A stretch of DNA of 64,000 bases from Tepidisphaeraceae bacterium (GTDB taxonomy: Bacteria > Planctomycetota > Phycisphaerae > Tepidisphaerales > Tepidisphaeraceae), in assembly GCA_035634055.1 (NCBI GenBank), contig DASQDR010000048.1, positions 35,492 to 99,491 on the forward strand. The letters are read 5' to 3'. The notes beneath the pieces are model-generated. The model did no database searches and was not told the DNA's origin. It saw only the letters and a list, made by a program, of their open reading frames with translations. Positions 3,751-52,356 of this stretch are shown here, one piece after another; position 1 is the first letter of the stretch, and the number at the start of each line of letters is the position of its first letter. Made by a program: the position numbers and the translations under genes.

Positions 3751-3780
3751 TTCATTCGTGAAGATTCGTGAAATTCGTGG
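3751..3780. repeat. Half-copy of ATTCGTG-armed repeat (same unit layout as right arm at 17555-17584)
   Basis: ttcATTCGTGaagATTCGTGaaATTCGTGg has three ATTCGTG units at 10- and 9-nt spacing. This matches the layout tATTCGTGttcATTCGTGccATTCGTGg at 17556-17584. It sits in an AT-richer intergenic stretch. Confidence 0.6.
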
Positions 3781-20363: not shown

Positions 20364-20434
20364 GGGGATTGAAGATTGATGACTTGAACGGCCGTGCCTC
20401 GCGCCGTTCAAGCTCCAATCCTCAATCTCCAATC
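20364..20434. repeat. Hairpin with heptamer-unit arms (GATTGAR / YTCAATC), likely bidirectional terminator
   Basis: The left arm ggGGATTGAAGATTGATGACTTGAACGGC pairs with the right arm GCCGTTCAAGCTCCAATCCTCAATCTCCAATC. It lies between convergent stops at 20330 and 20443. Confidence 0.7.
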
Positions 20435-23262: not shown

Positions 23263-23910
23263 GTGATCATCACCATGACCACCGGCGGCATCGCCGGCAC
23301 CAACAGCTACCTCGTCGGCGATGAAGCCTCCGGCAAGGCAGTCATCTTCGACGCGCCCGACCACACCGTCGCCGCGCTGCTCGACGAGGCGCAGGCGCGC
23401 GAGCTGGACGTGATCGGCCTGTGGCTCACGCACGGGCACTTCGATCACGTGGCGGATCACCAGGCGGTCATCGGGCGCTACCCCGGCGCCCGGGTGCTGA
23501 TCCACCGGCTCGACGAGCCGAAGCTCCGCGACCCGGGCAGCAGCTTCTTCACGCTCCCCTTCACCATCCCGCCGCGCGGCGCGGACGCGCACGTTGAAGA
23601 TGGCGACAAGCTCAAGCTCGGCCAGCTCGACGTCGAGGTGCTCTACACGCCCGGCCACTCGCCGGGGCACGTGATGTACCATTTTCCGAAGGAAAAGCTG
23701 CTGATCGGCGGCGACCTGATCATCATGGGCGCCGTCGGCCGCACTGACCTGCCCGATGCCAGCGCCGCCGACCTTGAGCGATCGATCCTCCGCGTCATGC
23801 GCCTCCCGGGCGACACGCGCCTGCTCCCCGGGCACGGCGATCCCAGCACCTTGGACGACGAGCGCCGCACCAACCGGTTCGTGGAGTACGTGCTGGCGGG
23901 CGCGCGATAG
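23263..23910 (+). CDS. MBL-fold metallo-hydrolase (glyoxalase II-like)
   Basis: THGHFDHV motif and TPGHSPGH. The start is ambiguous (23218, 23263 or 23275). Confidence 0.85.
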   Translation: MIITMTTGGIAGTNSYLVGDEASGKAVIFDAPDHTVAALLDEAQARELDVIGLWLTHGHFDHVADHQAVIGRYPGARVLIHRLDEPKLRDPGSSFFTLPFTIPPRGADAHVEDGDKLKLGQLDVEVLYTPGHSPGHVMYHFPKEKLLIGGDLIIMGAVGRTDLPDASAADLERSILRVMRLPGDTRLLPGHGDPSTLDDERRTNRFVEYVLAGAR

Positions 23911-23918
23911 CGACCGCG

Positions 23919-24014
23919 CCGCATGGCCGCATGGCCGCATGGCCGCATGGCCGCGTGGCCGCGTGGCCGCGTCGGCGCGGTGCGGCATGGGCGCGGTGCC
24001 GCGTTGCCGCCGGG
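23919..24014. repeat. Octanucleotide tandem repeat, about 12 units
   Basis: CCGCATGG x4, CCGCGTGG x2, then degenerating units (CCGCGTCG, GCGCGGTG, CGGCATGG, GCGCGGTG, CCGCGTTG, CCGCCGGG). It lies between convergent stops at 23910 and 24035. Confidence 0.85.
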
Positions 24015-24034
24015 CAGCGGCGCTGGCGGGTTGT

Positions 24035-25587: not shown

Positions 25588-26790
25588 TCAGGAGCCGAGC
25601 TGCACGAGCTTTTCCTGTTCCTTCCGGCGGAGCTGTCCGCAGGCGGCGTCGATGTCGCCGCCGCGGCTCTTGCGCACGTGCGCGTTCACGCCGTTGCGCC
25701 GCAGGATTTCCTGGAACGTCACCACGTCCTTCGCCAGCGGGCGCTTGAACGGCAGGCTCGAGACCTCGTTGTAGCGGATCAGGTTGACGTTGGCGCGCAT
25801 CGTCTTGCACAGCCTGCTCAGCTCGCGGGCGTGCTCCGGGCGGTCGTTGACGCCGCTGAGCAGGATGTACTCCAGCGTGATCTCGCGCCCGCTCTTGTCG
25901 AAGTAGTACCGGCAGGCGTCGAGGATGTCCGGCAGGGCGAAGTGCTCCGCCCAGGGGATCAGCTCCCGCCGCAACGGCTCGTTCGGCGCGTGCAGTGACA
26001 GGGCGAGGTTGATCGGCAGATCCTCCTCGGCGAGCTGCCTCATCTTCGCCGGCACCCCCACGGTCGAGATCGTGATCCGCCGCGCCCCCATGTTCAGGCA
26101 CTTGCGGTCGTTCAGGATGCGGACGGCCTGCATGACGCTGGCATAGTTCGCCAACGGCTCGCCCATGCCCATGAAGACGACGTTGGTGATCCGCTCGGAA
26201 GACGAAGGCACGAAGGCACGGAGGCACGGAGGGTGTGATGAGGGACCGAGGGAGGAAGTGAATTCACCTTCTCCCTCCGCGCTGTCTCCACCCCTTCGTG
26301 CCTCCGTGCCTGACGCCTTCGTGCCTTCCGCGAGGGTCTGATTCAACCGATACACCTGCTCCACGATTTGCCCCGCGGAGAGGTTCCCCTTCACGCCGTT
26401 GACGCCGCTGGCGCAGAAGCGGCACTGGACGGGGCAGCCGACCTGGCTGCTCACGCAGGCGGTGCGGCGATCGCCGTCGGGGATCATGACGGTCTCGGCC
26501 TGCGCGCCGTCCGGCCACCCGAGCAGCAGCTTGATCGTGCCGTCGCTGCTGATCTGCCGGGAGACGATGCGCGATGAGGTGATTTCGACGCGCTCGGCGA
26601 GCGCGGCGCGGTCGGCCTTGCTCAGGTTGGACATCGCCTCGGGCGAATCGACCAGCCGCTCGTACGCCCACTGCCGCACCTGCTGCGCGCGGAACGCCGG
26701 CCAGCCCCAGGTCTTCACCAAGGAGTCGAACTCGCGCGGGAGCAGGTCGAGAAAGCGCGTTTTTTGGCTCGGCAGCACGTCCAGAGGCAT
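25588..26790 (-). CDS. rlmN: 23S rRNA/tRNA adenine-C2 methyltransferase RlmN (radical SAM) carrying an insert of about 44 aa
   Basis: Radical-SAM CPVQCRFCASG, ITNVVFMGMGEPL, SLHAPN and C-terminal GGDIDAACGQL. The start at the ATG at 26790 (MPLDVLPSQK) is preferred. Confidence 0.93.
   Translation of the reverse strand: MPLDVLPSQKTRFLDLLPREFDSLVKTWGWPAFRAQQVRQWAYERLVDSPEAMSNLSKADRAALAERVEITSSRIVSRQISSDGTIKLLLGWPDGAQAETVMIPDGDRRTACVSSQVGCPVQCRFCASGVNGVKGNLSAGQIVEQVYRLNQTLAEGTKASGTEARRGGDSAEGEGEFTSSLGPSSHPPCLRAFVPSSSERITNVVFMGMGEPLANYASVMQAVRILNDRKCLNMGARRITISTVGVPAKMRQLAEEDLPINLALSLHAPNEPLRRELIPWAEHFALPDILDACRYYFDKSGREITLEYILLSGVNDRPEHARELSRLCKTMRANVNLIRYNEVSSLPFKRPLAKDVVTFQEILRRNGVNAHVRKSRGGDIDAACGQLRRKEQEKLVQLGS
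26198..26331. repeat. Palindromic octamer-armed element inside rlmN coding sequence (in-frame)
   Basis: Arms of AGGCACGR units and their complement surround a GAATTC-centred core. The 19-nt core 26249-26267 is identical to 47408-47426. Confidence 0.8.
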
Positions 26791-34624: not shown

Positions 34625-37600
34625 CTACACGCTGTGGATCATCCGGGCCGACAGGAAAACGAGGTGAACGCGGCTGACGCTCTGCCCGGTAATGCCTTTG
34701 ACCGCCCGGCGGTAAAGTTCCATCTGCGGCTTGTACCGCTCCACCCGCGCGGCGACGGTTTCGGGCGTGACGCGGTCGGTCTTGTAATCGACGATCTCCA
34801 GCCCCGCGGGCGTGGGAACGAGCACGTCGATGCGGCTGCGGACCATCACGCAATCCTCCGGGTCGCCCGAGGCGGGCGCGGACGGATCGAGCTCGTTCGC
34901 CGGCAGCGGGAAGTAGACCGGCAGCTCCCGGCGGACGCGTTTCGCGTGCGCGCGGATGAGCTGTCCGACGGCGCTGCCGACCAGCCAGCAGAGCGATTCG
35001 AGGTCCACGTGGTCCGCCTCGGCGGGCGCGATCAGCCGCTTGTCCGCCAGCCACTGCACCTGCTGCTTCAGGTCATCGATGTCGCACGGCCGGTCGAAGT
35101 CCAGGTGCTGGAGGGCCAGGTGCGTGGCCGAGCCGACGTCGGCGGCGGACGGCTTCACTTCCGTGCGCACCGCGCGCGGCAGCTCGAGCGTGCGGACCCA
35201 ATCGGTTCCCGGCGGCTCGGATGCGCTCGCGCCGTTGCCGTCAGCCCCGCGTGCGCCGCCGCCGCCGCCCCGTGCGCCCCCTGCGCTGCCCGCGCCGTGA
35301 GCCGGGTGCTTCGCCAGCGCCGTCGCCGCCTCGGCGGCCTGGATCCGCGTGAACGGCTGGTGCGGGTACTTCGCCGTCAAGCGGGCGATGATGCGGTCCG
35401 CCTCGTCGCTGGGCGGCGGCGGCGGGTCGAGCGGTTCCAGCCGGGCGAGGCGGCGCTGCCGCTCGCCGTCGGACGGGCGCATCGATTCCGGCGTCGGCCA
35501 CTGCGCGACATCGTCGCTGGCGTGGCGGACGACGCGGATTGGCTCCTGCGCGCCCTCGCCATCGCCGTGGCCGCGCTTGAGGATCGTGGCGACCGGCCCG
35601 AGCCAATCGAGCATGCAGCGCGCCCCGACGACGGCGTCGGCCGGCAGCGGACCGTCGCCGTGGCTTGCCCAGCGCGCCGCCCAGGTGTCGGGCGCGGCCT
35701 CGCGGCACGTGCCGATCAGCACCAGGTGTTCCTTGGCGCGCGTCATCGCCACGTACAGCACGCGCAGCTCCTCGGCCATCGCCTGTTGCCGCAGGCGGTT
35801 TGACACCAGCTTTGAAGCCAGCGACGGGTAGCGCACCTGCTTGGCCTCGTCGACCACTTCCATCCCCAGCCCGCCGTGGCGGTCGAGCAGGATCGGGCCG
35901 GAGCAGTCGCGCACGTTGATCGCCTTGCCGAGGTCCGGCAGGATCACGACGGGGAACTCCAGCCCCTTGCTGCGATGGATGGTCATGATGCGGACGACGT
36001 CTTCACCTTCGCTGGCGACCGACGGTTGGCCGAGGTCCGACTCCTCGCGCAGGCGGTCGAGGAACGCCAGGAAGCGCGCCAGCCCCTGCCGCTGGAAGGA
36101 GCCGAACTGCCGGGCGCGCTCGTGCAGGTCGATGAGGTTCGCCTTGCGCTGCTCCCCGTCGCGCAGGCCGGCGCAGAAGGCGAGGTAGCCGGTGGAGTCG
36201 TACACGTCCCAGATCAGCTCCGCCAGGGGCCGGCGCTGGGCCATGTCGCGCCAGCCGTCGAGCTGCGCCAGCACGTCGCGCAGCTTGGCTGCTAATTCGT
36301 CGTCGTGATCTTTGGCGTAGCGCACGACCGCCTGGTGGAACGGGACTTCCTTGCGGTCGTACGCCAGCCGCACGCGCGCCAGCGCGTCCTCCGCGTCGGG
36401 CAGCGCCGCGAGCGGGCTTCGCAGCAGGCCGGCCAGCGGGATGTCCTGCCGGCGGTTGTCCAGCACCTTCAGCAGGGCCAGGACGTCGCGCACCTCCATC
36501 GAATCGAAGTACCCGCTGCCGCTCTCGCTGTGGGTGGGGATGCCCGCGCCGCGCAGCACCTCGGCGTAGTCGTCCCCCTTGTAGCGCATGGAGCGGAGCA
36601 GCACGACGATGTCGCTGCGCCGGATCGGCCGGGGGGTGAGGATGCCGTCACGATCTTTCTCGATGACGCACATCGGCCGCCCGCCGTCGGCGCCCGTCAT
36701 CTGGCGAACGAGCCGCGCGACGAGCAGCGCTTCGCGCGCGGTGCGGTCCGGCTCGATCGCGTCCGCGCCACTGCCGCCACCACTGCCGCCGTGATCGTCA
36801 ATGCCGGCCTGCGGGTCGGCATCCACGTCGTGCGGCAGCAGGTGAAGCTCGACCGGCGCGCCGGCGAAGCACGACTTGCCGTCGCCGGCGGGGTATTTCA
36901 GCCCCGGCCGCAGCTCGTGCGTGTGGTCGTACTGAAGGTCCGCCGCCTCCTTCGTCATTAGCTTGGTGAAGACCTGGTTCAGCACGTCCAGCAGCGGCGC
37001 GCGGCTGCGGAAGTTGGCCTGGAGGTCCACCACCATCCCACCGCCCGCGCCCGCCCCGCCGCCTTCACGAAAGCGCTCGTGCCGCGCGAGAAACCGCGCC
37101 GGCTCGGCCAGCCGGAACCCGTAAATGCTCTGCTTCACGTCCCCGACGCAGAAAAGGTTGGAGGAGAAGGATGAAGGGGGATCGAGGAAGGATGAATCAG
37201 AAGCACGGCCGTCGGCGGCAGCATTTGTCTTTCCCTCTTCTTCATCCTTCCTCCTTCCGACTTCATCCTTTCCCGCGATTTCATCCCCCACGCACTCGCG
37301 GCTGGCGAGGCGGAGGATCCCGTCCTGCACCTCGTTGATGTCCTGGTACTCGTCGACCAGCACGTGGGCGAACTGCCTGTGCAAGAGGCGGGCGACGCTG
37401 GACGGGCGGTCGGTGTCGCCGTCGCGCAGGGCCTTGAGCGCCAAGCGCTCCAGGTCCGTGAAATCGACGCCGCGTAGCGCCGACTTCTCCTGCTGGTAGC
37501 GCTGCCCGAACGCCTGCACGAGATCGAGGAACAGCTCGGCGTGCGGGCGGACCGAGGCGATGCCTTCGATCCACTGCGCGGTCGTGAACCGCAGCGCCTG

Positions 37601-38617
37601 GCGGATCGGGCCGCACTTGATCTCGTCGCGCACCAGCTCCACCAGCGCCTTGGCCGTCTCCTTGCCCGGCGTGGCGTTGCTGACGGTCGGCAGCTTGGGG
37701 AGCTGGATCTCCGATTCCGCCGCCAGCGCGTCCAGCCCGTCGCTTTGCAGCACGGCCTGCCAGTGCGCGACGATCTGGCGGCAGGATTTGAGGTCTTCGA
37801 CGTACTTCGCGAAGCCGTCCATGCGCGACACGGCCGCGAGCGACGCGTCGCACTGCTGCGCGAGCGCGGCCAGGCGCCGGCGGAGGTCGGCGACGAGCTG
37901 TCGGCCCAGCTCCGATTCCTCCAGCGGCTTGCCCGCCGACACTTCCTCCAGTCGCCGCCGCGCGTCGGTCAGCCACTGCTGCGGATCGACCAGGCTGCCG
38001 AGCAGCTCGTGGGCGTCGATCAGCTTGGCCACCAGCCGCTCGTCGTTCCCCTCCGCGTAGGCGTCCACCAGCGCCTGAAACTGCTCCGACCGCGGCGGCG
38101 CGGCCTCGTACTGCTCCGCGAACAGCTCGCGCGCCACCTCCAGCCGCAGCAGCGCCGCCTCGTCGCCGTCCAGCACCGTGAACGCGGGGTCGAGCCCGAG
38201 CAGGTGGAAGTGCTGGCGGATCAGCTTCGCGCAGAACCCGTGCAGGGTGCTGACCTGCGCCCGATCGATGAGCGCGAGCTGGCGGCTGAGCCGGCGGTCA
38301 TCGGGGCTCCTGGACAGCCGCTCGTGCAGCGCCCGCTCGATGCGCGACTTCATCTCCGCCGCCGCCGCCTCGGTGAACGTCACCACCAGCAGCTCGTCGA
38401 CATCGCACGCCGGCTCGGCGTCGCAGACGAGGTAAGCGCAGCGCGCCGCCAGCACCGCGGTCTTGCCCGACCCGGCCGCCGCGGAGACGAGCAGGCTTTG
38501 GCCCGTCGTGGCGATGCCGGCCCACTGCTCGTCGGTCCAGTTCGTGCCGACCGGCTTGGGCGGGAGCTGGAATTTCACCACGCGGTCGCGCGTCGGCTTC
38601 TTCGCCTTAGTCGCCAT
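34625..38617 (-). CDS. addA: ATP-dependent helicase/nuclease subunit A (AddA/UvrD-like plus PD-(D/E)XK nuclease)
   Basis: Motif I AAAGSGKTAVL, motif II VLVDEYQDIN, motif III FCVGDVKQSIYGFR, motif VI VAMTRAKEHL, and a C-terminal nuclease (IDVLV...IVDYKT). Confidence 0.92.
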   Translation of the reverse strand: MATKAKKPTRDRVVKFQLPPKPVGTNWTDEQWAGIATTGQSLLVSAAAGSGKTAVLAARCAYLVCDAEPACDVDELLVVTFTEAAAAEMKSRIERALHERLSRSPDDRRLSRQLALIDRAQVSTLHGFCAKLIRQHFHLLGLDPAFTVLDGDEAALLRLEVARELFAEQYEAAPPRSEQFQALVDAYAEGNDERLVAKLIDAHELLGSLVDPQQWLTDARRRLEEVSAGKPLEESELGRQLVADLRRRLAALAQQCDASLAAVSRMDGFAKYVEDLKSCRQIVAHWQAVLQSDGLDALAAESEIQLPKLPTVSNATPGKETAKALVELVRDEIKCGPIRQALRFTTAQWIEGIASVRPHAELFLDLVQAFGQRYQQEKSALRGVDFTDLERLALKALRDGDTDRPSSVARLLHRQFAHVLVDEYQDINEVQDGILRLASRECVGDEIAGKDEVGRRKDEEEGKTNAAADGRASDSSFLDPPSSFSSNLFCVGDVKQSIYGFRLAEPARFLARHERFREGGGAGAGGGMVVDLQANFRSRAPLLDVLNQVFTKLMTKEAADLQYDHTHELRPGLKYPAGDGKSCFAGAPVELHLLPHDVDADPQAGIDDHGGSGGGSGADAIEPDRTAREALLVARLVRQMTGADGGRPMCVIEKDRDGILTPRPIRRSDIVVLLRSMRYKGDDYAEVLRGAGIPTHSESGSGYFDSMEVRDVLALLKVLDNRRQDIPLAGLLRSPLAALPDAEDALARVRLAYDRKEVPFHQAVVRYAKDHDDELAAKLRDVLAQLDGWRDMAQRRPLAELIWDVYDSTGYLAFCAGLRDGEQRKANLIDLHERARQFGSFQRQGLARFLAFLDRLREESDLGQPSVASEGEDVVRIMTIHRSKGLEFPVVILPDLGKAINVRDCSGPILLDRHGGLGMEVVDEAKQVRYPSLASKLVSNRLRQQAMAEELRVLYVAMTRAKEHLVLIGTCREAAPDTWAARWASHGDGPLPADAVVGARCMLDWLGPVATILKRGHGDGEGAQEPIRVVRHASDDVAQWPTPESMRPSDGERQRRLARLEPLDPPPPPSDEADRIIARLTAKYPHQPFTRIQAAEAATALAKHPAHGAGSAGGARGGGGGARGADGNGASASEPPGTDWVRTLELPRAVRTEVKPSAADVGSATHLALQHLDFDRPCDIDDLKQQVQWLADKRLIAPAEADHVDLESLCWLVGSAVGQLIRAHAKRVRRELPVYFPLPANELDPSAPASGDPEDCVMVRSRIDVLVPTPAGLEIVDYKTDRVTPETVAARVERYKPQMELYRRAVKGITGQSVSRVHLVFLSARMIHSV
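37160..37288. repeat. Hairpin element (GGATGAA / TTCATCC arms) inserted in-frame in addA
   Basis: AAGGATGAA occurs at 37167 and 37188. TTCATCC occurs at 37241, 37262 and 37280. The 129 nt are AT-richer than the surrounding gene. Confidence 0.7.
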
Positions 38618-41600
38618 CGCCGCCGCCCCCCTTCAGCACCATGTCCAGCACGTCCGAGCGCTTCATCGCCGGCAGCGAGAGGTAGCGGTTAAGGCCCGCG
38701 TCAAACCGGCAGACGCCGCGGTAGGGGCAGTTGGGGCACGGCGTGTCGCGCCCGATGCGATAGGGGCGCGCCTCGACCGAGCCGGCAATCATCTCGTCGG
38801 CGAGCTGCCCGACCTTGCGCTTCACGAAGCCGAGCAGCGCGGCGAAGGCGCCGGCGTCGGCGACGTCGGTGGTGTCGAGCTTGCCGAACCCGCCGTCCTT
38901 GTTGACGTGAACCTGCACGACCTGCGACGCGCCGCACTCCAATTCAGCGTCGAGCTGCTGAACGTATCGCGCGTCGAAGATCCCGCGCGGCTTCACGCGC
39001 AGGTCGAACGCCGGGTCCGTCTCGTCCGGCGCCTCGTCGGGATGATCCACGGATTCCAGGCTGCGCAGCAACTTGGCGTAGAATGCCGCCACGGGCGAGA
39101 CCTTCTTGCCGAACAGCTTCTCGCCGCTGGCCTCCAGCACCAGCAGGTAGGTCAGCAGTTGCAGCGAAAGCCCGTGGTAGACCTCGTGCAGCGCCAGGCG
39201 GTCGTCGCGCAGCTTGTAGTCGATGACGGCGACGGCGTTGCCGTCGCGCAGCAGGTCGACGCGGTCGATCTTGCCGTGCAGCCGCACGACGCGCCCGCGC
39301 GGGGTCTTCAGCTCCAGCGGCGGCAGGCCGTCGGCGCCCTGGCCGAAGCCCAGCTCCGCGTACGCCGGGCGGAACCCGCCGCGCGACAGCGCCGCCTGCT
39401 GCGCGGCGCAGACCTGCTCGACCGTCCTGCGCACGCGCTGGAGCAGGTACTTGTTGCGCGCGTTGCTGAGCATCAGCTCCCCGCGCAGCGCCTTGCCGGC
39501 GCGGTCGGCCAGCTCGCCGACCATCTGCCGGGTGATCTGCCGCTCGACCTCGCACCAGTCGGCGCGCTGCCGCAGCGTCTGGCGGACGACGCCCTCGAGG
39601 ATCTGGTGGTAGACGTTGCCAAGGTCCAGCGGGGTGACGTCCGATTGCTCGCGCTCCTGCAGCCCCAGCCCGAAGCGCGCGAAGTGCTTGAACGGGCAGG
39701 TGGCGAACGTCTCGATGCGCGTGACGCTGGCGTGCAGCTCGCCGCCGACCAGCCGCTGGGCCGTCTCGGGCGAGAGCCGCGCGTCGTTCTGGTAGCCGAC
39801 GGCGCGCCACGCGCGGAAGCGCATGATGTCGATGGCGTCGTCGCAGCAATCGTGCTGCCGCAGCCAGCCGTAGAGCGACGCCCAGGGCTGCTCGGCGTCG
39901 GCGGCGTCGTCGCAGCGGCGGGCCCAGCGCATCAGCGCGGTCACGAGCTGCCGCGGCGTGCCGATTCCCGCCGGGCCGGCGTCGGCCTCGCGCTCCTCGC
40001 GCGCGACCTCGTTGTGAGGGAACATCCGCCGCAGGCGCGCCCAGTAGCCGGAGCCGTTGATCGGCTTGTTGTCGTTCGACGTCGCGCGCGTCACCACCAG
40101 GCCGTGCGACGCGCGGGTGAAGGCGATGTACGCCAGCAAGTTCTCATCCAGCAGCCGCCGCTCGCTGTCGGGGTCGACGTCGAGGTGGTGGCTGCGCAGC
40201 GACCGCCGCTCGGAATCGGACAGCACCGAATCCTCGCGCGACACCCGCGGGAACTGCCCCTCCGCCAGCCCGAGCACGAACGCGGCGTAAACGCGCGTCG
40301 TCCGCGTCCGCTCCGCCTGCCCGACCAGCACCTGATCCACGCGCGGCGGCGTGAGGGCGAGGTCGAACTGCTCGAGCCCGGCCTCGAGGATCTCCACGAA
40401 ATCGCCCGGCGTGACCGCCGCATCGCCGAGCAGCTCCGCGAGCTGGTCGAACATCTTCACCAGCTCCGCCCACACCTGCTCGTGCTCGCCGCGCTGCTCC
40501 GGATCGTTGTTGGCGATGGCGTCATTGATCCACGTCGCCAGCGTGCCGCGCACGTCGAAGCGGGCGTACAGCTCGAACAGCTCCACGATCGTCTGTCGGA
40601 TCGGCCGCTTCTCCTCGGCGCGCAGGCGGGCGACGAACGGGGCGAGGCGATCGCTGACGTGGCGGCGGAGCCGCTCCATCTCCGCGGCCTCGGCGCGCTC
40701 CGCGAAGGCGGCGGCGTCCACGTCGTCGCCGTCGCCGCGGGCGATCGTGCGCGCGAACGCCCACGCGTCCGCGCCCGACCACGCGGGCCCGCCGCGGATG
40801 CGGTGGAGCAGCACGTAATTCTCCAGCGCCTCCGCCTGGTCGTGCTCGAGCCCGCACAGGCCGCTCTTGACCACCGCCATCACCGCATCGTGCGGCCAAT
40901 TGTGGCGGGCGATCTGAAAGACCGCGCGGGTGAATTGCAGCAGCGGGTGGTGTCCCGCCGAGCGCCGGCGATCGACGAAATACGGCACATCGTGCTCGCG
41001 GAACGATGCGGCGATCAGCTCGTCGTAGTCGTCGATATCACGGACCAGCACCGCGACGTCGCGCAGCCGGCGGCCGCCGCGCAGCATCTCACGGATCCGC
41101 CGCGCCACCGCATCCACTTCCCCGCGCCGGTCGGGCGCCTCGACGAACTGCACCGCCCAGCACTGCGCCTGCGGCCTCGCCCCGTCGAACAGCCGCGCCT
41201 CGACCTCCGCCAGCGCGCCGTCGGCGAACCGCCCCGCGCCGCGCAGCAGCAGCGGCGGCTCGACTTCCACCTGCGCCTCGGCCAGGGTGAGCACCAGCTT
41301 TCGGTAGGTGGTTTCCGTGCGATGAAAGAGGCTGAGGTCGTCCGGCAGGTGGTGGACGTCGCGAAGGGTCGGGCTGCGCGGGTCGATCAGCAGCGTGACG
41401 TCCACCCGCCCGCAGGTCTCGCCCAGGGCGACGATCATCCGCCGCTCGCGGTCGGTGAACTCGTGGAAGCCGTCGATGTAAACCGTCGCGCCGCGCAGCG
41501 GGCGGTGATCGTGCAGGCAGGCCAGGACCTGCTCGAGCCGGCGGTGCGGGTCGACGCGCTCCTGGCCCAGCGCGTCGCGGTAGGCGCGGTAGAGCAGGTG

Positions 41601-45565: not shown

Positions 45566-45640
45566 GACGCCCGTCAGGTGGGGCCCGCGGTGTTTTATGC
45601 CGGCGGGAACCGGGCACGGCGATTGCACGGACGCGCTGCA

Positions 45641-47335
<1,695 letters not shown>

Positions 47336-47344
47336 AGTTCAATG

Positions 47345-47523
47345 ATGGGAGGCACGGAGGCACGGAGGCACGGAGGCACGGAGGCACGAAGTGGGTTGAA
47401 GGGGACAAGGGAGGAAGTGAATTCACTCTATCCCTTCTCTCTTATCACTCCCTTCGTGCCTTCGTGCTTCCATTCCCTCCGTCGCTTCGTCCCTCCGTCG
47501 CATCGTCGCTTCTTCCTCCCCCC
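47345..47523. repeat. Intergenic octamer-armed palindromic element (GGAGGCAC)x5 ... GAATTC core ... (CTTCGTGC-type)x9
   Basis: Five perfect GGAGGCAC units at 47348-47387. Core agggaggaagtgaattcac at 47408-47426. Nine 8-nt units at 47452-47523 (cttcgtgc cttcgtgc ttccattc cctccgtc gcttcgtc cctccgtc gcatcgtc gcttcttc ctcccccc). Confidence 0.85.
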
Positions 47524-47559
47524 CTCCATCGCGCCCGCCCCCTTTGGTACATTGCGCCG

Positions 47560-48120
47560 ATGGAGATCCGCGCTGCAACGCAATCCGACCTTGACGGCCT
47601 GCGCGAGATCGACGGGACGGTCGAATCCGCGCAGTACCTCCACCTCGAGCGCACCGGTGAGGGGTTCGCGAGCGGGTGGCAGCTCGAGCAGCGGCCGGCA
47701 CGGCAGAAGACGATCGAGCCGAACCGGCTCGACGACGACGCGTGGTTCACCCTCAAGCAGGTCGCCGGCGGCATCGAGGAGGGGATGGCGCTGATGATCG
47801 AGCACGACGATCAGCCGGTCGCGATGCTGCTGGCCCGCCCGGACCCGGCGGCGGGGACGCTGCGCATCGTCGACCTTCGCGTCGACTACGACTACCGCCG
47901 GCAGGGCATGGGAACCGCGCTGGTCTTCCACCTGATCCAGATGGCGCGCGACGGGGCGTTCCGCGCGATCGGCGCCGAGGCGCTGACGAACAACCTGCCC
48001 GCCAACGCGCTGCTGGCCAGGTGCGGGTTCGAGCTGAGCGGCGTCGACACGCGCCGCCGGACGAACCACGACCTGGTGAAGGAAGCGGTCACGCTTTTCT
48101 GGTACGTTCCGCTGGACTAA
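47560..48120 (+). CDS. GNAT-family N-acetyltransferase
   Basis: Acetyl-CoA motif A RRQGMGTALVFHLIQMARDGAF and NLPANALLARCGFELSG. Confidence 0.85.
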   Translation: MEIRAATQSDLDGLREIDGTVESAQYLHLERTGEGFASGWQLEQRPARQKTIEPNRLDDDAWFTLKQVAGGIEEGMALMIEHDDQPVAMLLARPDPAAGTLRIVDLRVDYDYRRQGMGTALVFHLIQMARDGAFRAIGAEALTNNLPANALLARCGFELSGVDTRRRTNHDLVKEAVTLFWYVPLD

Positions 48121-51135: not shown

Positions 51136-52356
51136 TCAGGCGGCCTGGGGCCACTCGACCTTCGCCCACTGCGATTCGCCCGTGCCGATGCTGTAGCGGA
51201 TGAGGGCGAACTTGCCCTCGTCGCCGTGGTCGGCCACCACCGCCTTCACCACCGCACCGGGGTGCTCGGACAGGAACGCCGCGACGGTGGCCGACGGCAG
51301 ATTGCCCGGGGCCACCTCGTAGCTGTCGAGCTCCACGGTCTCCGATTCCTCGAACGGGTGCGAGCCGGTGAAGGTGAAGCGGGCGTGGTAGACGGCGCCG
51401 TCGCCGTTGTAGCGGTAGAGCATCGTGAAGGTGTGGTCGTCGTTGACGCGCACGCCCACCGGCTCGGAATCCGGGAACGTGTCGACGAACGCCTGGCGGT
51501 AGGTCTCGGGGACGTAAGAGAGGTCGACGGGCACGTAGAGGCGGTCCTCGCCGGCGGTCTGGTCGGCGACGAGGTCGAGGACGGCACCGGGGGCGGTGGC
51601 ATCCTCGGAGGCGAAGTCGTCCTGCCCCGCGCCGCCGGAGAGCGCATCGCTGCCGGCGCCGCCGTCAAGCTGGTCGTCGCCGCGCCCGCCGCCGAGGGCG
51701 TCGTCGCCGGCGCCGCCGACGAGATGGTCGAAGCCGCCGTTGCCGTTGAGGGCGTCGTCGCCGGCGTTTCCGTCGGCGAAGTCGTCGCCCGCGCCGCCGG
51801 TGAGGACGTCGTCGCCGTTGCCGCCGTCGAGGGCGTCGTCGCCGTTGCCGCCGACGAGGGTGTCGTTGCCGTCGCCGCCGGCGATGAGGTCGCGAGCGCT
51901 GCCGCCGACGATGCGATCGTTGCCCGCGCCGCCGTCCACGCGATCGCGCCCGCCGCCGCCGAACAGCACGTCATCGGCGCTGCCGCCGATGATCAGGTCG
52001 TTGCCGCCGCCGCCCAGCACCGTCATCGGCACCGAGATGCCGCCGGCCGCGCCGGAGGCGACCACAACGTGATCGCGCCCGCTGCCGACGTCCACCTGGA
52101 TACCGGCGACGGCCGTGCGGTCGAAGGTGCTCCAGGCGCCGTTGACGTTGACGCGGAGCACGCTGGCGTCGCTGGCGTCGCCGGCGATCAGCACGTGGTC
52201 GCCGGCATCGGTGCCGGTGACGTAAAGCTGCGTGCCCGACAGCGCCGCTGAGAAGAGCCGGCGCGCGGCGAGCGGCTCGATGCGAGCGGCCGGGGCCGGG
52301 AAGTTGGACGACTTGGGCGACTTCGACAACGACGAGGAAGGACGGCGGCGGTTCAT
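51136..52356 (-). CDS. Secreted RTX/hemolysin-type calcium-binding repeat protein
   Basis: N-terminal [12 protein letters not shown] motif and at least 10 GGxGxD nonapeptides ([51 protein letters not shown]...). The ATG at 52356 has GGAG upstream. Confidence 0.88.

What the first reader, a model, noticed from the sequence alone, without database searches (positions are those of the whole stretch)
47345..47523. Intergenic master-like copy: (GGAGGCAC)x5 arm, GAATTC core, nine-unit complementary arm
The element lies directly after the recQ stop. It has five perfect GGAGGCAC octamers (47348-47387) and a core shared with the rlmN copy. On the other side are nine 8-nt units (47452-47523) that are progressively degenerate complements. 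The period of 8 is not a codon multiple. The left arm presents five Shine-Dalgarno-like GGAGG motifs, and the right arm supplies CCTCC-type complements. The RNA would be a long hairpin that could act as terminator, processing site or ribosome/anti-SD decoy. Unequal arm lengths (5 versus 9 units) imply slippage-type expansion and contraction.
Basis: seen in the sequence. Interest (0 to 1): 0.65.

Follow-up and report, generated by a model that had tools for sequence, protein, structure and literature searches.

The report
Octamer-armed palindromic repeat after recQ
The sequence after recQ is one copy of a dispersed palindromic DNA repeat whose two arms are tandem runs of the 8-base unit CACGRAGG; a homologous copy sits in-frame inside rlmN, a differently-united hairpin sits in-frame in addA, and the same arms occur across many bacterial phyla without, as far as I could find, having been described.

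Summary
(GGAGGCAC)x5 is perfect at 47348-47387. An 18-nt core with GAATTC recurs exactly inside rlmN. A complementary right arm follows: two units match 7/8, then a 1-nt register slip, then a degenerate 16-nt duplication. Both strands fold equally well (about -110 kcal/mol), so this is a DNA-level palindrome. There is no T-run terminator and no Rfam match.

It is one member of a repeat family. The rlmN copy is homologous over about 80 nt of core plus arms and is translated in-frame. Three more hairpins with 7-10-nt tandem arms lie in the window, one of them in-frame in addA.

In relatives, the rlmN site is empty or holds inserts. Two inserts share a core, but their arm units changed together on both sides (GGCACGAA to GCGACGAA).

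CACGRAGG arms in the same G-rich-first order occur in many phyla, usually as TTCAC plus three units. I saw no target duplication, transposase or RAYT.

Best reading: a REP/RPE/MITE-like selfish palindrome. Slippage and templated conversion plausibly shape it; neither was observed. The copying mechanism is unknown. The Shine-Dalgarno decoy idea is unsupported. I rate it a new variant of a known kind, of moderate interest.

The parts
45638..47335 (+). recQ-family helicase gene upstream of the element (probable ATG at 45638; stop at 47333-47335)
   Evidence: Pfam DEAD, Helicase_C and RecQ_Zn_bind; ORF listing
47348..47387 (.). Left, G-rich arm: (GGAGGCAC)x5, which is the same array as CACGGAGG read in another register
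   Evidence: 100% identical units
47388..47408 (.). Left sub-core, homologous to the left sub-core of the rlmN copy
   Evidence: Alignment A2
47409..47426 (.). 18-nt core GGGAGGAAGTGAATTCAC, centre of the palindrome (GAATTC at 47419-47424); identical at 26250-26267
   Evidence: (I1, I2)
47427..47450 (.). Right sub-core. Position 47440 is T here but C in all 10 related Logan contigs; it lies in the stem
47451..47466 (.). Right, C-rich arm, proximal part: CCTTCGTG x2 (7/8 each against CCTCCGTG)
47467..47523 (.). Right arm, distal and degenerate part: a 9-nt irregular unit, then alternating CCTCCGTC and GCWTCGTC units (16-nt duplication at 47474-47507)
47560..48120 (+). GNAT acetyltransferase gene downstream
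   Evidence: Pfam Acetyltransf_1; the identical protein is found on 22 Logan contigs
26196..26330 (-). Second copy of the same family, in-frame inside rlmN. It encodes about 45 extra residues (..LAEGTKASGTEARRGG..PPCLRAFVPSSSE) between GQIVEQVYRLNQT and RITNVVFMGMGEP
37160..37285 (-). Related-architecture hairpin with GGATGAAG / CTTCATCC arms, in-frame inside addA between the DEYQD and VGDxKQSIY helicase motifs
   Evidence: (I4)
17494..17582 (.). Intergenic hairpin: CACGAATGGA x2, then a loop, then ATTCGTGnn x3
20367..20434 (.). Intergenic hairpin with 7-nt arms (GATTGAA x3, then CAATCTC x3.7) between convergent genes

Best explanation
Window 47345-47523 is one copy of a dispersed, non-coding palindromic repeat. 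It resembles a foldback element in the manner of REP, RPE or MITE families.

Anatomy: a G-rich arm of tandem CACGRAGG octamers, a palindromic core of about 80 nt centred on GAATTC, and the complementary C-rich arm.

Shown:
- It is a DNA-level palindrome.
- It has at least one homologous copy at an unlinked locus, inside rlmN.
- Hairpins of this tandem-arm build sit at gene 3' ends, or in-frame in tolerant protein loops.
- Arms keep their sequence and complementarity while cores and unit types turn over.

Inferred:
- Copies spread at the DNA level by an unidentified route. Candidates are a trans-acting enzyme encoded elsewhere, or recombination and template switching between copies that uses the arms as homology.
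- Unit number changes by replication slippage; the perfect x5 left array would be a recent expansion.
- The two arms, and different copies, are homogenised by hairpin-templated or ectopic conversion.
- The element has no dedicated regulatory role here. When transcribed with recQ it would form a hairpin of about -110 kcal/mol. That hairpin could incidentally stall 3' exonucleases or RNA polymerase.
- The constant G-rich-first order may persist because the C-rich arm is paired as soon as it is made, so no Rho-loading site is exposed. This last point is speculation.
For: Palindrome and statistics. Equal folding of both strands.

Second copy: an identical 18-nt core, with homology across sub-cores and arms.

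In-frame copy in rlmN. The protein matches solved RlmN structures in two blocks; query residues 167-215 are extra, falling between chain residues 158 and 167. An in-frame hairpin also lies in addA.

The rlmN site in relatives:
- The loop has no insert in roughly half of 120 relatives.
- It carries 20-65-residue inserts in the others.
- Empty-site DNA is seen in L135 and L325.
- L132 and L326 share the core GGAAAGACA..CTGCTTCGCC, but their arms are GGCACGAA/TTCGTGCC in one and GCGACGAA/TTCGTCGC in the other.

Other tandem-arm hairpins in the window and relatives. Placement in the window: four at convergent 3' ends, two between co-directional genes, none between divergent genes, two in coding sequence.

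Beyond this lineage:
- CACGRAGG arms run in the order G-rich then C-rich in 67 adjacent pairs, against 7 in the reverse order, in 120 genome loci from many phyla.
- The same counts are 45 against 4 in IMG/VR loci.
- Arms are 3+3 units in 32 of 67 pairs. TTCAC is the commonest flank, at 30 of 145 ends.
- Alphaproteobacterial gene-transfer-agent clusters carry one in most intergenic gaps, as REPs do.

Logan assemblies of the same strain all break inside the array. This fits repeated k-mers.
Against: No route of mobility was found:
- No target-site duplication.
- No pair of arms enclosing a transposase.
- No recurrent neighbouring protein family in 1.9 Mb of element-bearing loci beyond phage and housekeeping genes.
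- No transposase, Y1/RAYT, integrase or reverse transcriptase among 38 window genes.

Other weaknesses:
- Only two copies of the GAATTC-core subfamily are in hand. That core was not found with arms in the metagenome collection.
- In the cross-phylum class the interiors are unrelated even within one genome (L100, L019). This is unusual for a MITE.
- Homology between the window's elements and the cross-phylum TTCAC class rests on the shared octamer and architecture, not on an alignment.
- No orthologous recQ-GNAT spacer exists to show an empty site.
- Conserved arm sequence across phyla could instead mean a conserved binding partner.
Confidence: 0.6

Rival explanations
1. The hairpin is mainly a functional RNA element. 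It would act as a U-tract-independent (possibly bidirectional) transcription terminator, a 3'-end stabiliser, or an RNase III site that sets recQ and GNAT expression. The repeat family would then be a genome-wide set of such signals.
For: The stem is very stable. All six intergenic tandem-arm hairpins and half-arrays in the window follow a gene's 3' end, and four lie between convergent genes. In the gene-transfer-agent operons one element sits in most gaps, and some are followed by T-rich runs. The two SNPs seen among strains in this copy are both C/T: 47440 lies in the predicted stem and 47468 in the right arm. High-GC bacteria are reported to use terminators without U-tracts (my own knowledge, not checked here).
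Against: No T-run follows this copy. Two of five hairpins lie inside essential-type coding sequences, where termination would be harmful. The two strands fold equally. Placement at 3' ends is also what purifying selection gives any selfish insert. There is no Rfam family.
Confidence: 0.17
2. The octamer arrays are protein-binding iterons. A DNA-binding protein, for example a ribbon-helix-helix type that reads 7-8-bp tandem units, would coat the arms, and the elements would serve a DNA-level role such as processing, partition or topology.
For: The arm sequence, not only the pairing, is conserved across phyla, with a fixed 3-unit layout and fixed polarity. On Ri plasmid pRi1724 the same octamer forms 11 tandem units (9 CACGAAGG, 2 CACGAGGG) 8 nt from a T-DNA border repeat. 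From my own knowledge, 8-bp repeats there were reported as a T-DNA transfer stimulator (Hansen, Tempe and Brevet 1992). I saw only the citation.
Against: No candidate protein was identified. Relatives swap the unit for others at the same site, which a fixed binding protein would not tolerate. Many different units (7-10 nt) show the same architecture in one genome. The copies inside genes argue against a positional role. The pRi array has no inverted partner.
Confidence: 0.1
3. The element arose where it is. A short native hairpin grew by repeated 8-nt slippage, with each arm templated on the other. Similarity to other copies would be convergence or later gene conversion, not transposition.
For: Concerted unit change happened in place at the rlmN site. 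The empty rlmN site, AAAGAGCACGGCGAG in L325, already resembles a unit. Long-unit simple repeats (5-11 nt) are known to accumulate in some genomes (Mrazek 2007, as summarised in PMC4679880). Burkholderia stagnalis carries a 270-nt pure octamer satellite that includes (GGAGGCAC)x8.
Against: This copy and the rlmN copy share an 18-nt identical core and about 80 nt of homologous core at unlinked loci. The same 30-nt end recurs across phyla. Growth by 8 nt per arm inside a gene would shift the reading frame at most steps.
Confidence: 0.1
4. One reading: the five GGAGG motifs and the CCTCC-type complements act as a ribosome or anti-Shine-Dalgarno decoy or sequestration device.
For: GGAGG occurs five times in the left arm.
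Against: CACGAAGG units and non-SD units are used interchangeably. The motifs are base-paired in the stem. Two hairpins lie within ORFs. No SD-like sequence lies next to the GNAT start.
Confidence: 0.03

Closest known systems
Rickettsia palindromic elements (RPE)
   Same: Palindromic repeats of about 100-150 nt that are dispersed in the genome and repeatedly found in-frame inside functional protein genes, adding a peptide loop (as reviewed in PMC10969869). Here this is seen in rlmN and addA.
   Different: The host phylum differs (Planctomycetota and others). The arms are tandem octamers with a fixed G-rich-first order. No sequence comparison with RPE families was made.
REP / BIME / REPIN elements mobilised by RAYT transposases
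   Same: Intergenic hairpin repeats that sit at gene 3' ends and within operons, with no target duplication and many copies. The gene-transfer-agent clusters with one element in most gaps look like REP-bearing operons.
   Different: There is no GTAG or CGTC head (PMC3733652). The elements are much longer, their arms are tandem repeats, some copies are intragenic, and no RAYT gene was found.
Bacterial MITEs
   Same: Short non-coding elements bounded by inverted terminal sequences, folding as long hairpins. A 30-nt end is conserved.
   Different: No target-site duplication. No autonomous partner. Interiors are unrelated within a genome. The terminal repeats are themselves tandem arrays, which is more like eukaryotic foldback elements (my own knowledge).
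Long-unit simple sequence repeats (5-11 nt units; Mrazek et al. 2007) and cyanobacterial STRR heptamers
   Same: Head-to-tail arrays of 7-8-nt units, probably made by slippage, and abundant in particular lineages. The Burkholderia octamer satellite is an example.
   Different: Here two complementary arrays face each other around a core. The same unit recurs at dispersed loci and across phyla.
8-bp repeat 'T-DNA transfer stimulator sequence' beside the right border of Ri plasmids
   Same: The octamer is the same: 11 tandem CACGRRGG units on pRi1724.
   Different: The plasmid array is a single direct array next to a relaxase nick site, with no inverted partner. The window element has no border-like sequence. 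The functional link is a lead only.

Membership tests
REP/REPIN (RAYT-associated) | Short (20-40 nt) imperfect palindrome with a conserved GTAG or CGTC head | tested here: not met
   The element is about 180 nt. Its arms are CACGRAGG arrays and no GTAG or CGTC tag lies at the ends. The definition is from PMC3733652.
REP/REPIN (RAYT-associated) | A cognate Y1 (RAYT) transposase gene in the genome, usually flanked by the repeats | tested here: inconclusive
   None among 38 window genes. No recurrent candidate next to elements in 1.9 Mb. The whole genome was not available.
MITE | Terminal inverted repeats | tested here: met
   Complementary arms are present. A conserved 30-nt end is seen in the cross-phylum class.
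MITE | Target-site duplication flanking the element | tested here: not met
   No direct repeat flanks any of 78 scored arm pairings (some overlap within tandem clusters), nor the window copies.
MITE | An autonomous insertion sequence with the same ends | tested here: inconclusive
   Only one arm pair 0.6-4 kb apart was found, and it encloses pyrF and rplD-like ORFs (identified by eye from the translations, not by a search), not a transposase. Whole genomes could not be scanned.
Rickettsia palindromic elements | Palindromic repeat inserted in-frame in protein genes with the ORF preserved | tested here: met
   rlmN and addA.
Rickettsia palindromic elements | Sequence homology to RPE-1 to RPE-10 | not tested
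   No RPE sequences were compared. The different phylum makes homology unlikely.
Intrinsic (Rho-independent) terminator | GC-rich stem followed directly by a U-tract | tested here: not met
   The stem is present. No T-run follows and the scan found 0 sites in 47000-47900.
Variable-number tandem repeat / long-unit SSR | Head-to-tail repeats of a 5-11-nt unit | tested here: met
   TRF: period 8, 5.1 copies, 100% matches.
Variable-number tandem repeat / long-unit SSR | Copy-number polymorphism among strains | not testable with these tools
   All 10 Logan contigs of the same strain end inside the array. No orthologous spacer exists in relatives.
Integron attC site | RYYYAAC and GTTRRRY core sites at the ends, within cassette arrays next to intI | tested here: not met
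   The window copies lack these boxes. The dense arrays examined are phage-like gene-transfer-agent operons, not cassettes.
Rfam RNA families | Match at the gathering score | tested here: not met
   0 matches in the window and in 18 element-bearing loci. Only sub-threshold generic miRNA-hairpin hits appeared.

The most novel reading that the evidence does not exclude
The CACGRAGG-armed palindromes form a previously undescribed, cross-phylum superfamily of hairpin elements. They occur in Planctomycetota, Acidobacteriota, Gemmatimonadota, Proteobacteria, Verrucomicrobiota, Bacteroidota, Cyanobacteria and viral contigs.

They share a conserved 30-nt end (TTCAC plus three octamers) and an obligatory G-rich-first polarity. 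Interiors are free to vary. There is no target duplication and no linked transposase. This would imply a new mode of spread or maintenance. One option is a trans-acting protein that reads octamer iterons, as beside the Ri-plasmid T-DNA border. Another is repair-coupled capping of DNA ends.

They would also be a general source of in-frame peptide insertions in housekeeping enzymes.
Probability: 0.3. Interest if true: 0.75.

Novelty: new variant of a known kind. Interest (0 to 1): 0.55.

Why it matters
If the reading is right, high-GC soil and freshwater bacteria carry a class of palindromic repeats built from short tandem units. These behave like the in-frame elements of Rickettsia: they add 40-50-residue loops to enzymes such as RlmN and AddA without destroying them.

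The class also offers a clean natural case of concerted evolution of the two arms of a palindrome.

The same octamer arms in many phyla, with fixed polarity and no recognisable transposase, point to an unknown copying or binding factor.

There are practical consequences too. These elements break short-read assemblies, as every Logan contig here ends in the array. They inflate protein length variation. They can create spurious ORFs in annotation.

Tried and rejected
- Rfam at gathering score on the window and on 18 loci: nothing. At E-value threshold only generic miRNA-hairpin noise appeared.
- Terminator and promoter scan: nothing.
- Orthologous recQ-GNAT spacer: none exists. The closest relative has a 663-residue TPR gene there, and others have a methyltransferase upstream of GNAT.
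- Target-site duplications: none.
- Autonomous element: the one distant arm pair encloses pyrF and rplD-like ORFs.
- Guilt by association over 1.9 Mb: only phage portal and terminase, ABC ATPase and SDR clusters recur. The Mu-portal cluster comes from one phage lineage, and in the one locus checked (L214) the pattern falls inside a coding gene.
- Integron attC idea: rejected, because the dense arrays are gene-transfer-agent tail operons.
- Phage collection BLAST: no match.
- Literal sequence searches of open full texts: no paper. Keyword searches found only neighbouring topics.
- Unit number from Logan contigs: not recoverable, because contigs stop in the array.
- A repair-scar or telomere-like end-capping origin fits the polarity, the lack of duplication and the synteny break. 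It does not explain the homologous cores of the two window copies or the conserved TTCAC flank, so it is kept only within the novel case.

Full report
OBSERVATION

The sequence is as described. After the recQ-family gene (Pfam DEAD, Helicase_C and RecQ_Zn_bind; stop at 47333-47335) come five perfect GGAGGCAC units at 47348-47387 (TRF: period 8, 100% matches, score 82). Next is a core holding GAATTC at 47419, then a C-rich arm. The GNAT gene starts at 47560.

By a strict periodicity test the 64-kb window holds only three period-8 arrays, and none of period 7, 10, 11, 12 or 13.

The 18-mer GGGAGGAAGTGAATTCAC occurs exactly twice, at 47409 and 26250.

The 'nine complementary units' need a correction. 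In a fixed register only the first three beat chance (7, 7 and 5 of 8). With one extra base after the third unit the scores are 7, 7, 5, 7, 5, 7, 4, 4 and 3 of 8. The distal part is a 16-nt duplication whose GCTTCGTC-type units belong to a second unit family.

STRUCTURE

The 226-nt spacer folds at -109.8 kcal/mol as plus-strand RNA (z = -6.8) and at -109.4 as minus-strand RNA. The copy at 26190-26335 gives -94.9 and -98.0. The symmetry is therefore in the DNA, and neither transcript is favoured.

No T-run follows the stem, and no promoter-like or terminator-like site was found. Rfam has no match at gathering score. At a relaxed threshold only generic miRNA-precursor hairpins appear, far below their cut-offs.

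A FAMILY, NOT A SINGLETON

The second copy (26196-26330) aligns with this one across arms, sub-cores and core.

It lies inside rlmN on the minus strand, and the reading frame stays open through it. It adds ..LAEGTKASGTEARRGGDSAEGEGEFTSSLGPSSHPPCLRAFVPSSSE.. between GQIVEQVYRLNQT and RITNVVFMGMGEP. Against solved RlmN structures the protein matches in two blocks. Residues 167-215 are extra, falling between chain residues 158 and 167.

A hairpin with GGATGAAG / CTTCATCC arms lies in-frame in addA, between the DEYQD and VGDxKQSIY motifs.

Two more hairpins with tandem arms are intergenic: 17494-17582 (10-nt units) and 20367-20434 (7-nt units). Half-arrays lie at 3754 and 61515.

On a GC3-based gene map the intergenic ones all follow gene 3' ends. 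Four lie between convergent genes, two between co-directional genes and none between divergent genes.

None of 38 window genes is a transposase, Y1/RAYT, integrase or reverse transcriptase.

RELATIVES

The names that source databases give to RlmN homologues place the organism in Tepidisphaeraceae or Phycisphaerae.

In 120 RlmN relatives the same loop has no insert in roughly half. In the others it has 20-65 extra residues. These read as translations of palindromes with different tandem units: EGTKALRHEGT/PSCLRASVPSCL, SDEATKRRSD/SSLRRSVASSL, KDEGGRMKDE/SSFILHPSSF and GFRVQGSG/LNPEPRTLNP.

The DNA confirms this:
- L135 and L325 are empty sites.
- L132 has CACGAAGG arms at the same position as the window copy, but a different 20-nt core.
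- L326 shares that core (GGAAAGACA..CTGCTTCGCC) with L132, yet its arms are GCGACGAA on the left and TTCGTCGC on the right.

So one ancestral insert changed its unit on both arms together. Complementarity is restored after change, by selection or by templating.

Relatives also carry heptamer-armed palindromes, for example a near-perfect one inside mfd (L135 12420-12500).

For the recQ-GNAT spacer no orthologue exists. The closest relative has recQ, then a 663-residue TPR gene, then GNAT, with no element. Others have a methyltransferase upstream of GNAT. The element therefore sits at a synteny breakpoint.

The same strain appears in 22 Logan contigs. All ten examined begin inside the array, as expected if its k-mers are repeated. 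They show two C/T differences in the element: 47440 in the predicted stem and 47468 in the right arm.

BEYOND THIS LINEAGE

About a thousand chance hits are expected in 596 Gb, so the raw count means little. The architecture does.
- In those loci, arrays are followed 2-450 nt later by the complementary array in 67 cases, and the reverse order occurs in 7. The reverse cases are mostly junctions between neighbouring elements.
- Hosts include Planctomycetota, Acidobacteriota, Gemmatimonadota, Alpha-, Beta-, Gamma- and Deltaproteobacteria, Verrucomicrobiota, Bacteroidota, Chloroflexota and Cyanobacteria.
- Most ends read (A)TTCAC CACGRAGG CACGRAGG N CACGRAGA. Arms are 3+3 units in 32 of 67 pairs, and TTCAC flanks 30 of 145 ends.
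- Interiors vary even within one genome. Only 14 of 47 long interiors are strongly structured.
- No target duplication was seen.
- Elements are spanned by stop-free frames less often than random windows (60% against 87%), but some lie in long ORFs.
- IMG/VR contigs show the same pattern, 45 against 4.
- Alphaproteobacterial gene-transfer-agent tail operons carry one element in most intergenic gaps.
- The Tepidisphaerales and Phycisphaerae copies lack TTCAC and have longer arms.

Whether these are homologous to the cross-phylum class, or only share its unit and build, is not proven.

In eight of ten tandem-arm hairpins from this lineage the 5' arm is G-rich and the 3' arm C-rich.

RELATED OBSERVATIONS IN ANNOTATED RECORDS

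Burkholderia stagnalis has a 270-nt pure octamer satellite that includes (GGAGGCAC)x8, with no inverted arm.

Ri plasmid pRi1724 has 11 tandem CACGRRGG units 8 nt from a T-DNA border repeat. From memory this is the 8-bp-repeat 'T-DNA transfer stimulator sequence' of Hansen et al. 1992. Only the citation was verified.

LITERATURE

Literal searches for the arrays in open full texts found nothing. The nearest described kinds are these:
- REPs with GTAG or CGTC heads (PMC3733652).
- RPEs and other in-frame MITEs (PMC10969869).
- Long-unit simple repeats and heptamer repeats (PMC4679880).

None describes palindromes with tandem-octamer arms. Subscription papers and supplements were not searched.

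INTERPRETATION

The best-supported reading (about 0.6) is a selfish or neutral palindromic repeat of the REP/RPE/MITE kind.

The palindrome, the second copy, the in-frame copies, the 3'-end placement and the concerted arm turnover are shown.

The copying route, slippage as the source of the perfect x5 array, conversion between arms and between copies, and the Rho-avoidance explanation for G-rich-first polarity are inferred.

The rivals are a functional RNA hairpin (0.17), protein-binding iterons (0.10), purely local origin (0.10) and the Shine-Dalgarno decoy (0.03). The first two could also be secondary uses of a selfish element.

VERDICT

The finding is real and more interesting than an ordinary terminator. 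It falls within the known category of palindromic repeat elements, so I rate it a new variant of a known kind, with interest 0.55. There is about a 0.3 chance that the cross-phylum family is a distinct, undescribed system.

Noticed in passing
window 23918-24010: A third period-8 array, (GCCGCATG)x6.6 decaying to GCCGCGTG-like units, lies between the convergent 3' ends of a metallo-beta-lactamase-fold gene and a GH30 glycosidase gene. It is partly self-complementary and folds at -89 kcal/mol over 23906-24030.
   Followed up: partly
window 37160-37285 (addA, 34625-38632, minus strand): An in-frame insert of about 45 residues (..GDEIAGKDEVGRRKDEEEGKTNAAADGRASDSSFLDPPSSFSS..) made by a GGATGAAG / CTTCATCC palindrome. 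It lies between helicase motifs II and III of an AddA-type helicase-nuclease.
   Followed up: partly
window 47336-47559 compared with L137 7997-10000: In the closest relative found, a 663-residue TPR gene lies between recQ and GNAT. In the window only the 224-nt spacer with the element is there. Two further genes upstream of recQ in L137 (an AP endonuclease and a TPR gene) also appear to be missing. The element marks a synteny breakpoint.
   Followed up: partly
L135 12420-12500: A near-perfect palindrome with (GGACTGA/GGACTTA)x4 arms lies in-frame inside the mfd (TRCF) gene of a relative. Its heptamer resembles the TAACTGA repeats described in Beggiatoaceae.
   Followed up: no
L241 4626-12512; L256 1135-6813; L223: Alphaproteobacterial gene-transfer-agent-like tail operons (DUF2460, Gp84-like hub, Phage-tail_3, Rcc01698_C) carry a CACGAAGG(A)-armed hairpin in most intergenic gaps. 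Elements at the same gaps in two genomes keep their arms but differ in the loop.
   Followed up: partly
L327 1437-1524 (pRi1724): Eleven tandem CACGRRGG octamers (9 CACGAAGG, 2 CACGAGGG) end 8 nt from a T-DNA border repeat (TGACAGGATATATTCTAAAGTAATG on the other strand). This is probably the published 8-bp-repeat transfer stimulator sequence. The unit is the same as in the window's arms.
   Followed up: partly
L131 2940-3210 (Burkholderia stagnalis plas1): A 270-nt intergenic satellite made only of octamers: blocks of GGAGACGC, GGAGGCAC x8, AGACACGC and GGAGACAC. There is no inverted partner.
   Followed up: no
L111 6654-7057: In a Tepidisphaeraceae MAG, 45-nt inverted ends that include octamers and a second repeat (CTCCCGCTGCGCGGGAACCCTCGG) bracket 290 nt lying within a 3.8-kb stop-free frame. 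This may be a nested or cargo-carrying copy inside a gene.
   Followed up: no
L001-L010 (Logan contigs), position 1: Every short-read contig that encodes the identical GNAT protein starts 194-196 nt upstream of it, inside the octamer array. The repeat systematically breaks k=31 assemblies.
   Followed up: yes
window 51629-52014: A long 27-nt-period repeat (11-14 copies, about 70% identity) lies in a gene with RTX calcium-binding nonapeptide repeats (HemolysinCabind). It is an ordinary coding repeat, unrelated to the finding.
   Followed up: partly
L032 and L044 interiors: Some cross-phylum elements enclose other palindromic repeats, for example GTCATCCCGAGGCGAAGCGAAGGATC-type sequences, which to my recollection are common in soil bacteria. 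This suggests nesting of hairpin repeats within one another.
   Followed up: no
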